The position numbers were made by a program, and so were the translations under genes. Below the pieces are notes generated by a model that was given only the letters and a program-made list of their open reading frames with translations, ran no database searches and was not told where the DNA came from. Below are positions 26,285 to 26,510 of a stretch of 64,000 nt of DNA, one piece after another; within the stretch, counting starts at the first letter, position 1, and the number at the start of each line of letters is the position of its first letter. The stretch is from Octopus vulgaris (taxonomy: Eukaryota): assembly GCA_951406725.2 (NCBI GenBank), contig OX597818.1, forward strand, positions 118,854,001 to 118,918,000, given 5' to 3'.

Positions 26285-26510
26285 TCTTTTACTATTTTAC
26301 TCTTTTGTTTCAGTTATTTGACTGCGGCCATGCTGGAACACCACCTTTTTAGTCGAGGAAATCGAAACCCAGGACTTATTCTTTGGAAGCCTAGTACTTA
26401 TTCTATCGGTCTATTTTGCCTAATCGCTAAGTTACGGGGACGTGAACACACTAGCATCGGTTGTCAAGCGATGTTGCGGGGGAACAAACACAGACACACA
26501 AACACACGCA

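What the first reader, a model, noticed from the sequence alone, without database searches (positions are those of the whole stretch)
26300..26345. The SINE 3' end matches the 3' ends of both LINE families: candidate SINE-LINE partnership
Seen: SINE (minus strand) GGTGGTGTTCCAGCATGGCCGCAGTCAAATAACTGAAAC; family B (46612-46650) GGCGGTGCCCCAGCATGGCCACAGCTCATGAGCTGAAAC; family A GGTGGTGCTATTAAGTTAGACATGGCCTGGGCCAATAATGGCCGAAAC. All share GGYGGTG...CATGGCC-hairpin-GAAAC followed by a short-repeat tail. A further degenerate piece (CATGCCGGCGCACCGCC) lies at 24590-24606. Known: SINEs borrow the 3' tail of stringent LINEs (CR1/L2). Inference: this LINE lineage, or a close relative, mobilised the SINE, although this SINE copy's 3' end is not in (TA)n.
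Basis: partly seen in the sequence, partly recalled or inferred. Interest (0 to 1): 0.7.

Follow-up and report, generated by a model that had tools for sequence, protein, structure and literature searches.

The report
Short retroposon sharing a LINE's tail
A headless, SINE-like repeat ends in the same 39-base double-hairpin tail as a neighbouring family of CR1-type LINEs, which points to that LINE lineage as the source of the enzyme that copied it; this is a well-known kind of partnership, seen here in an octopus-like genome.

Summary
The shared tail is real for LINE family B: 29 of 39 bases are identical, 0 of 2000 shuffles score as high, and a model built from LINE tails alone finds the SINE tail at E 1e-10. 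For family A the sequence match is weak: it is not significant by local alignment and only marginal when anchored at the 3' end. All three tails, however, fold alike: a hairpin with a G·G mismatch, a second hairpin, GAAAC, then short tandem repeats. The 24590-24606 piece is not a stray fragment but the 3' end of a third, older CR1-type LINE cut by an assembly gap. Homology stops at the tail. The SINE tail is only 72-74% identical to B tails, and it does not run into (TA)n as 16 of 16 examined LINE ends do. Present-day B is therefore probably a relative of the mobiliser rather than the mobiliser itself. SINE identity is unproven here: one copy, no Pol III head, no target-site duplication. Verdict: a new member of a known kind (SINE/CR1-group tail sharing).

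The parts
26346..26500 (-). Body of the SINE-like element; no Pol III head seen; begins at a (TG)/(TA) microsatellite; not homologous to the LINE ends
   Evidence: Sequence; single copy in the window; local alignment to the ~300 nt upstream of the tails of B, A and C not above shuffles (767, 132, 280 of 1000)
26326..26345 (-). SINE tail hairpin 1 (7 bp, G·G mismatch, loop UCCA)
   Evidence: MFE = centroid; descriptor scan
26307..26324 (-). SINE tail hairpin 2 (4 bp, one pair changed on both sides relative to B) and terminal GAAAC
26283..26306 (-). Three degenerate A-rich 8-nt tandem units ending the SINE-like element; not followed by (TA)n
   Evidence: Sequence
46612..46673 (+). Family B 3' tail in the 3' UTR: hairpin 1 (46612-46631, loop CCCA), hairpin 2 (46633-46646), then (AATC)n running into (TA)n. 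Other intact B tails: 47327-47365(-), 57997-58035(-), 30716-30754(-), 62364-62402(-); damaged: 17509-17540(+), 18218-18249(-)
   Evidence: ORF2 stop at 46583-46585
13482..13556 (+). Family A 3' tail in the 3' UTR: hairpin 1 with longer stem and loop UUAAGU (13482-13508), hairpin 2, GAAAC, 8-nt tandem units, then (TA)n. Eight more copies: 5690(+), 22645(-), 30208(-), 34785(+), 35939(+), 40775(+), 51610(-), 57643(+)
   Evidence: (z -4.0, 0 of 200 shuffles)
24584..24866 (-). 3' end of a third, old CR1-type LINE ('family C'): degraded ORF2 C-terminus plus hairpin 1 (24590-24606, loop GCCG); the rest is lost in the N gap
   Evidence: ORF2 profile hit E 5e-5; DNA alignment to B's end above 1000 of 1000 shuffles; 155/256 identical upstream, 15/17 in hairpin 1
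24484..24583 (.). 100-N assembly gap that cuts off family C's tail
51628..54759 (-). Family A ORF2 (APE endonuclease + reverse transcriptase), open frame of 1043 codons
   Evidence: Pfam PF14529, PF03372, PF00078; translation
47330..50457 (-). Family B ORF2 (APE + RT), broken into three frames in this copy: the kind of protein proposed to bind the tail
   Evidence: RT and C-terminus 42% identical to A

Best explanation
The element at 26283-26500 (-) is the 3' half of a SINE (or similar non-autonomous retroposon) whose last ~40 bases were captured from the 3' UTR of a CR1-group LINE of the family-B lineage. The RNA tail folds into two adjacent hairpins followed by GAAAC and short tandem repeats. 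The LINE's ORF2 protein binds this structure, with stems read generically and loops specifically as in zebrafish L2 elements, nicks DNA with its APE domain and reverse-transcribes the RNA from the tandem repeats. The SINE was thereby copied in trans. The donor and mobiliser was most likely an older or sister member of the B lineage, not today's (TA)n-inserting B, and not A. Shown: tail homology, its sharp 5' boundary, predicted fold, domain content, insertion contexts. Inferred: SINE identity, folding in vivo, protein binding, trans-mobilisation, which family did it.
For: 29/39 identity with shuffle controls. The LINE-only covariance model finds the SINE tail at 41.5 bits, E 1e-10, the only hit under E 0.1 that is not a LINE 3' end. 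Homology is confined to the terminal module, which is non-coding 3' UTR in A and B. Same two-hairpin MFE structure in SINE, B and A folded separately, and by RNAalifold. SINE-vs-B differences keep the pairing in 11 of 12 pairs, with one change on both sides. In old family C both differences in the 17-mer fall in the loop, and the 17-mer is more conserved than upstream sequence (15/17 vs 155/256, binomial p 0.014, endpoints chosen after seeing the data). The hairpin-1 loop of the SINE is closest to B's (UCCA vs CCCA; C GCCG, A UUAAGU). Precedent: loop-specific, stem-generic binding by ORF2 in ZfL2-1/2-2 (PMC4176376, Results part 1 read); SINE/CR1 tail sharing in bivalves (PMC4824008, PMC4758252, PMC11481361; passages).
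Against: One copy only; no tRNA/Pol III head and no convincing target-site duplication found. Covariation is not significant with so few lineages (174 and 285 of 500 shuffles as high), and one SINE change is at a CpG, so decay could explain it. The SINE tail's folding energy alone is unremarkable (z -1.6, 17 of 200 shuffles). The hairpin-2 loop differs between SINE and B. After CATG, family C's six bases before the gap match B poorly, and its model score is only E 0.1. No relative outside the window carried the motif: 0 of 80 loci by pattern and descriptor at a LINE end, 0 of the 22 loci given to the model.
Confidence: 0.62

Rival explanations
1. Present-day family B itself mobilises the SINE; the tail differences are tolerated or are decay in this old copy, and the SINE's different terminal repeats free it from (TA)n.
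For: B is the best match in the window (29/39); hairpin-1 loops differ by one base; B is young (copies 96-99% alike). A single decayed copy understates the similarity of a consensus.
Against: Differences cluster in hairpin 2 and keep its pairing, which looks like lineage divergence rather than decay. 7 of 7 B-type ends run into (TA)n and the SINE does not. Old family C matches the SINE's hairpin 1 almost as well (13/17 vs 14/17), so other candidates exist.
Confidence: 0.15
2. The element is not a Pol III SINE but another kind of tail-bearing sequence: a non-autonomous LINE derivative, the 3' UTR of an unrecognised LINE family with a long UTR, or a one-off template-switch chimera. It would still be copied by this LINE lineage's enzyme.
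For: No head, A/B box or tRNA found; single copy; short internally deleted CR1 derivatives are reported (PMC6740152, search listing and abstract start only).
Against: No ORF2 remnant in the 155 nt upstream of the tail, whereas A and B stop codons lie under 30 nt from the tail. The body resembles, from recall only, the 3' half of an abundant octopus tRNA-derived SINE.
Confidence: 0.14
3. The tail is a generic signal read by any LINE of the clade, so A, B and C could all mobilise the SINE.
For: Same fold and position in A, whose ORF2 is only 42% identical to B's and is not its sister in the tree; end-anchored similarity 12 of 5000.
Against: The SINE+B model does not pick A out of background (E 0.89); loops differ; swapping loops between two zebrafish L2 elements abolished retrotransposition (PMC4176376).
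Confidence: 0.07
4. The similarity is chance or convergence on a G+C-rich hairpin.
For: Short region, one SINE copy, noticed after the fact; the match to A is within or near chance.
Against: 0 of 2000, 0 of 500 and 0 of 5000 shuffles; E 1e-10 from a model that never saw the SINE; right strand and right terminal position before tandem repeats.
Confidence: 0.02

Closest known systems
Bivalve BivaV-SINE2 / BivaCORE-SINE1 / Vhc_1 SINEs with CR1-14_CGi, later assigned to CR1-Zenon (PMC4824008, PMC4758252, PMC11481361)
   Same: Mollusc SINE sharing a 35-61-nt 3' tail at 72-95% identity with a CR1-group LINE, with a conserved stem-loop and compensatory changes; the present match (39 nt, 74%) lies inside that range.
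   Different: By eye, the tail sequence is unrelated: the bivalve tail is A+T-rich with an AATAAA-type end (supplements read), whereas this one is a G+C-rich double hairpin before GAAAC and 4- or 8-nt repeats. The LINEs here sit in (TA)n.
Zebrafish ZfL2-1/ZfL2-2 stringent L2 LINEs (PMC4176376) and the eel UnaL2/UnaSINE pair (listed in PMC3747384)
   Same: Stem-loop with upper and lower stems plus short terminal repeats at the 3' end; the working model for ORF2 recognition.
   Different: L2 clade, vertebrate, experimentally tested; described with one stem-loop, here two adjacent hairpins are predicted; nothing tested here.
Octopus tRNA-derived CORE-SINEs OR1/OR2 (Ohshima and Okada 1994; cited in PMC4824008 and PMC4758252; original not seen)
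   Same: From recall, the body looks like the 3' half of the abundant octopus tRNA-CORE SINE; tRNA-Core SINEs are a main part of octopus SINEs (PMC8967140, passage).
   Different: No head or CORE domain is present in this copy and no consensus could be compared, so the assignment is a lead only. I found no partner LINE named for these SINEs in the texts searched.
CR1-group LINEs (CR1/Zenon lineage; PMC13343379, passages)
   Same: APE + RT ORF2, short 3' UTR; recently active CR1 families are reported in O. vulgaris (13 families, 787 insertions; PMC13282606).
   Different: That paper gives Zenon no ORF1 and a poly-A tail; A and B have an ORF1-like frame (weak Myb-like and CCCH hits) and tandem-repeat tails.

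Membership tests
SINE (tRNA-derived) | Pol III head with A and B boxes | tested here: not met
   ARAGORN 0 genes; no tRNA hit in 24500-29100 at E up to 5; the only B-box-like word in the window is on the other strand at 28013, without an A box. The copy may be 5'-truncated.
SINE (tRNA-derived) | Interspersed multi-copy family | not testable with these tools
   One copy in 64 kb; no host genome available; no match in plasmid or phage records or as a translated frame
SINE (tRNA-derived) | Non-coding, short, ends in simple repeats | tested here: met
   No ORF2 remnant; three A-rich 8-nt units
SINE (tRNA-derived) | Target-site duplication | tested here: inconclusive
   Only 7-9-nt low-complexity words shared with sequence 0.6-1.3 kb upstream; 5' end unknown
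CORE-SINE (OR1/OR2) | Central CORE domain | not testable with these tools
   No consensus available: SINEBase supplements unreadable, Gilbert and Labuda 1999 not held
SINE/stringent-LINE pair | Significant 3'-terminal homology limited to the tail | tested here: met
   Met for B; weak for A
SINE/stringent-LINE pair | Conserved stem-loop with compensatory changes | tested here: inconclusive
   Same predicted fold, one two-sided change SINE vs B, but covariation not above shuffles
SINE/stringent-LINE pair | Shared insertion signature | tested here: not met
   16 of 16 A and B-type 3' ends examined run into (TA)n; the one SINE copy does not
SINE/stringent-LINE pair | Trans-mobilisation or binding by the LINE ORF2 | not testable with these tools
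   Needs an experiment
CR1-group LINE (families A, B, C) | ORF2 with APE endonuclease and RT | tested here: met
   Pfam hits for A and B; C shows only the C-terminus
CR1-group LINE (families A, B, C) | RT phylogeny with named CR1 references | tested here: inconclusive
   A and B lie in one clade (100/99) with 25 unnamed proteins and loci L001, L002, but the tree had no named reference; the label CR1 is recalled from motifs
Zenon (as defined in PMC13343379) | No ORF1 and poly-A tail | tested here: not met
   ORF1-like frames and tandem-repeat tails
Hammerhead ribozyme | CUGANGA core upstream of stem II and GAAA | tested here: not met
   No such core at the SINE tail; no Rfam hit

The most novel reading that the evidence does not exclude
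This is the so-far unnamed partner lineage of the dominant octopus SINE. It uses an ancient two-hairpin 3' code (fixed stems with a G·G mismatch, family-specific loops) kept across LINE families whose ORF2 proteins are only 42% identical. If the full SINE carries an internal (TA)n tract (recalled; here the fragment begins at one), it would also spread the target sites into which the (TA)n-inserting descendants of its own mobiliser now insert: a SINE-LINE feedback loop.
Probability: 0.15. Interest if true: 0.65.

Novelty: new member of a known kind. Interest (0 to 1): 0.36.

Why it matters
SINEs make up 11.6% of the Octopus vulgaris assembly and most recently active SINE families are unclassified (PMC13282606, part 1 of 3 read). 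If this window is octopus, as its repeats suggest from recall, naming the LINE lineage behind a major SINE tells which enzyme drove that expansion. The natural series of tails (SINE, A, B, C), with like stems and unlike loops, is a ready test of whether the loop-specific recognition shown for fish L2 also holds in an invertebrate CR1-type lineage. The principle itself is textbook, and the pair may already be noted in Repbase or Dfam, which could not be consulted.

Tried and rejected
Hammerhead ribozyme reading of 'hairpin + GAAAC': no catalytic core, no Rfam hit. 'The 24590 piece is another SINE or a chance word': rejected, it sits at the end of an ORF2 remnant. Extended SINE-LINE homology upstream of the tail: none.

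Outside relatives of the tail. The genome-contig scan kept 80 of 380 confirmed stretches, LINE contigs inside prokaryotic assemblies. None had the motif at a LINE end, and the model over 22 of the 80 gave nothing under E 1. L001, which belongs to the A/B clade, ends in two predicted hairpins, a GAA word and ~10-nt repeats, but the model scores it -1.2 bits and the fold z is -1.2: not counted as support.

Read-through of the motif into homologue C-termini (118 of 120 proteins had a usable tail). Three patterns were tried: 1 hit vs 0.23 expected (39 of 200 shuffles as high), 5 vs 1.4 (1 of 200), 11 vs 8.4 (38 of 200). Suggestive at best.

Covariation statistics: not significant. Searches of the SINE piece in plasmid and phage records and of its translated frame: no match.

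Literature searches for an octopus SINE/LINE pair and for (TA)n-targeting CR1 showed none in listings or in the passages read. Ohshima and Okada 1994 and 2005, Gilbert and Labuda 1999, Repbase, Dfam, the SINEBase supplements and the supplement of PMC13282606 were not seen and may hold it. Metagenome and viral contig collections stayed unchecked.

Full report
Setting. The window is animal DNA rich in (TA)n arrays. Self-comparison shows two young LINE families in many, mostly 5'-truncated copies: A (copies about 96-99.9% alike) and B (96-99%, one copy at 87-91%), plus an older B-like copy at 18.2-19.9 kb. Both encode an APE endonuclease and a reverse transcriptase; their RT and C-terminal regions are 42% identical. 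In a tree of 67 RT regions (2 from the window, 25 of the 120 protein hits, 40 of the 80 loci) they fall in one clade (100/99) but are not sisters; A is the deepest branch. The labels 'CR1-type' and 'octopus-like' are recalled from motifs and repeat content and come from no call.

Observation. The four quoted strings are present at the stated places. The SINE tail (26307-26345, minus) and the B tail (46612-46650) are identical at 29 of 39 positions without gaps. Taking the whole 216-nt SINE piece as query, 0 of 2000 dinucleotide shuffles scored as high against B's last 200 nt and 0 of 500 against a 3.2-kb B copy (1 of 2000 and 3 of 500 with lenient scoring). Against A the same tests were null: 1607 of 2000 and 425 of 500. 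With 3' ends anchored, SINE-B gave 0 of 5000, SINE-A 12 of 5000 (103 with GAAAC held fixed) and A-B 31 of 5000 (235).

Leave-one-out models. A covariance model from 4 B and 2 A tails found the SINE tail at 41.5 bits, E 1e-10; every other hit under E 0.1 was a LINE 3' end. A model from the SINE and 4 B tails scored A ends at 8.4 bits, E 0.89, below four unrelated loci. The match to B is solid; the match to A is weak in sequence.

Structure. Folded separately, SINE, B and A tails give the same minimum-energy and centroid structure: hairpin 1 with a three- to five-pair base, a G·G mismatch and an upper stem, then directly hairpin 2 of four to five pairs, then the terminal GAAAC word and tandem repeats (RNAalifold agrees). 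Energy z-scores are -4.0 (A), -2.3 (B) and -1.6 (SINE). Between SINE and B, 11 of 12 pairs are kept, two by C-G to U-G changes and one by a change on both sides. Formal covariation is not above shuffles (174 and 285 of 500), as expected for three lineages, and one change is at a CpG. Loops of hairpin 1 are UCCA (SINE), CCCA (B), GCCG (C) and UUAAGU (A). The module lies in the 3' UTR, under 30 nt after the ORF2 stop in A and B, and the SINE shares nothing upstream of it.

The 24590-24606 piece. A 2-mismatch match of this 17-mer is unlikely by chance (0.03 expected at up to 3 mismatches). Upstream of it an ORF2 profile finds the C-terminus of a degraded LINE (E 5e-5), and the DNA aligns with B's last 300 nt above all 1000 shuffles. 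Identity is 155/256 upstream and 15/17 in hairpin 1, both changes in the loop (p 0.014, post hoc). It is a third, older family (C). Against this reading, the six bases between the 17-mer and the 100-N gap match B poorly, so the base of the hairpin is imperfect and hairpin 2 cannot be seen.

Is it a SINE? Not shown. There is one copy, no tRNA or Pol III boxes on its strand, and no credible target-site duplication. It starts at a (TG)/(TA) tract, beyond which lies a different 160-nt sequence between two (TA)n arrays. It has no coding remnant and ends in three A-rich 8-nt units. From recall it resembles the 3' half of the abundant octopus tRNA-CORE SINE; no consensus could be obtained to test that.

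Who mobilised it? All 16 LINE ends examined (9 A, 7 B-type, picked; C's end is in the gap) run into (TA)n; the SINE's does not. The five intact B tails differ from the 46.6-kb B tail at 0-3 of 39 positions but from the SINE at 10-11, and family C shows that further lineage members exist. In zebrafish L2 elements, ORF2 reads the stem generically and the loop specifically, and swapped loops block retrotransposition (PMC4176376; abstract and first half of Results read). By that rule A is unlikely, and a B-lineage family is likely. I put 0.62 on an older or sister B-lineage LINE, 0.15 on B itself, 0.14 on a non-SINE derivative of the same lineage, 0.07 on a clade-wide signal and 0.02 on chance. 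Binding and trans-mobilisation are inferred, not shown.

Outside evidence was thin. Of 380 LINE stretches found in prokaryotic assemblies, 80 were kept; none had the motif at a LINE end (model on 22 of them). L001, in the same clade, has a look-alike architecture that the model does not support. Back-translation of 118 homologue C-termini gave one nominally significant pattern out of three.

Comparison with what is known. Tail sharing between SINEs and CR1-group LINEs is established, also in molluscs (PMC4824008: passages and supplement parts 1 and 3; PMC4758252: passages; PMC11481361: passages and one supplementary figure; PMC3747384: passages and table), with matches of 35-61 nt at 72-95%. 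The bivalve tail is a different sequence by eye. A and B fail the Zenon features given in PMC13343379 (passages). Passages of octopus and cephalopod repeat papers (PMC8967140, PMC9068888, PMC9115989, PMC13282606 part 1 of 3), of PMC10294476, PMC5786205, PMC9223172 and PMC3531059, and searches named no partner LINE for an octopus SINE. Repbase, Dfam, the 1994, 1999 and 2005 papers and unread supplements may do so.

Verdict. A real LINE-derived tail, best matched to family B, within a lineage-wide two-hairpin motif. It is a new member of a known kind; interest 0.36.

Noticed in passing
window-wide, e.g. 13530-14572, 46651-47326, 50498-51562: All 16 examined 3' ends of LINE families A and B run into (TA)n arrays, often as opposed pairs within one array, although both carry an APE-type endonuclease and are not sister lineages. 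Target-specific or target-biased CR1-type elements; arguably more unusual than the finding itself.
   Followed up: partly
24584-24866 (-): Third, old CR1-type LINE family. The six bases next to the gap read, on the + strand, like the end of family A's 8-nt tail unit, so an A copy hidden in the gap may have interrupted this tail (may be chance).
   Followed up: partly
25147-25713: About 570-bp element with ~30-nt terminal inverted repeats, flanked by TA: looks like a non-autonomous Tc1/mariner-type transposon (class recalled; repeats seen).
   Followed up: partly
26550-26712: 160-nt sequence between two (TA)n arrays directly upstream of the SINE body; at 26585-26610 (+) a hairpin followed by GAAAC with a non-canonical hammerhead-like 5' word, possibly a decayed Penelope-type terminal repeat (recalled). 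No Rfam hit.
   Followed up: partly
18200-19879 (-) and 20285-20899 (-): Older B-related LINE (about 70-87% to B); its last 570 nt are full of small deletions yet still end in hairpin 2, (CAAT)n and (TA)n; could be decay or poor base calling.
   Followed up: partly
54633-56036 (-), 42730-43665 (+): ORF1-like frames of A and B with weak Myb/SANT-like and CCCH zinc-finger hits (below Pfam cut-offs) rather than the esterase type reported for vertebrate CR1.
   Followed up: partly
25789-25840: Four perfect copies of a 13-nt unit.
   Followed up: no
L001:2325-2400; L010, L017 and other loci: Many prokaryotic assemblies hold eukaryotic LINE contigs (380 stretches; 10 of the 80 kept come from one Metamycoplasmataceae assembly), apparently host contamination. 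L001 ends in ~10-nt repeats resembling family A's tail unit.
   Followed up: partly
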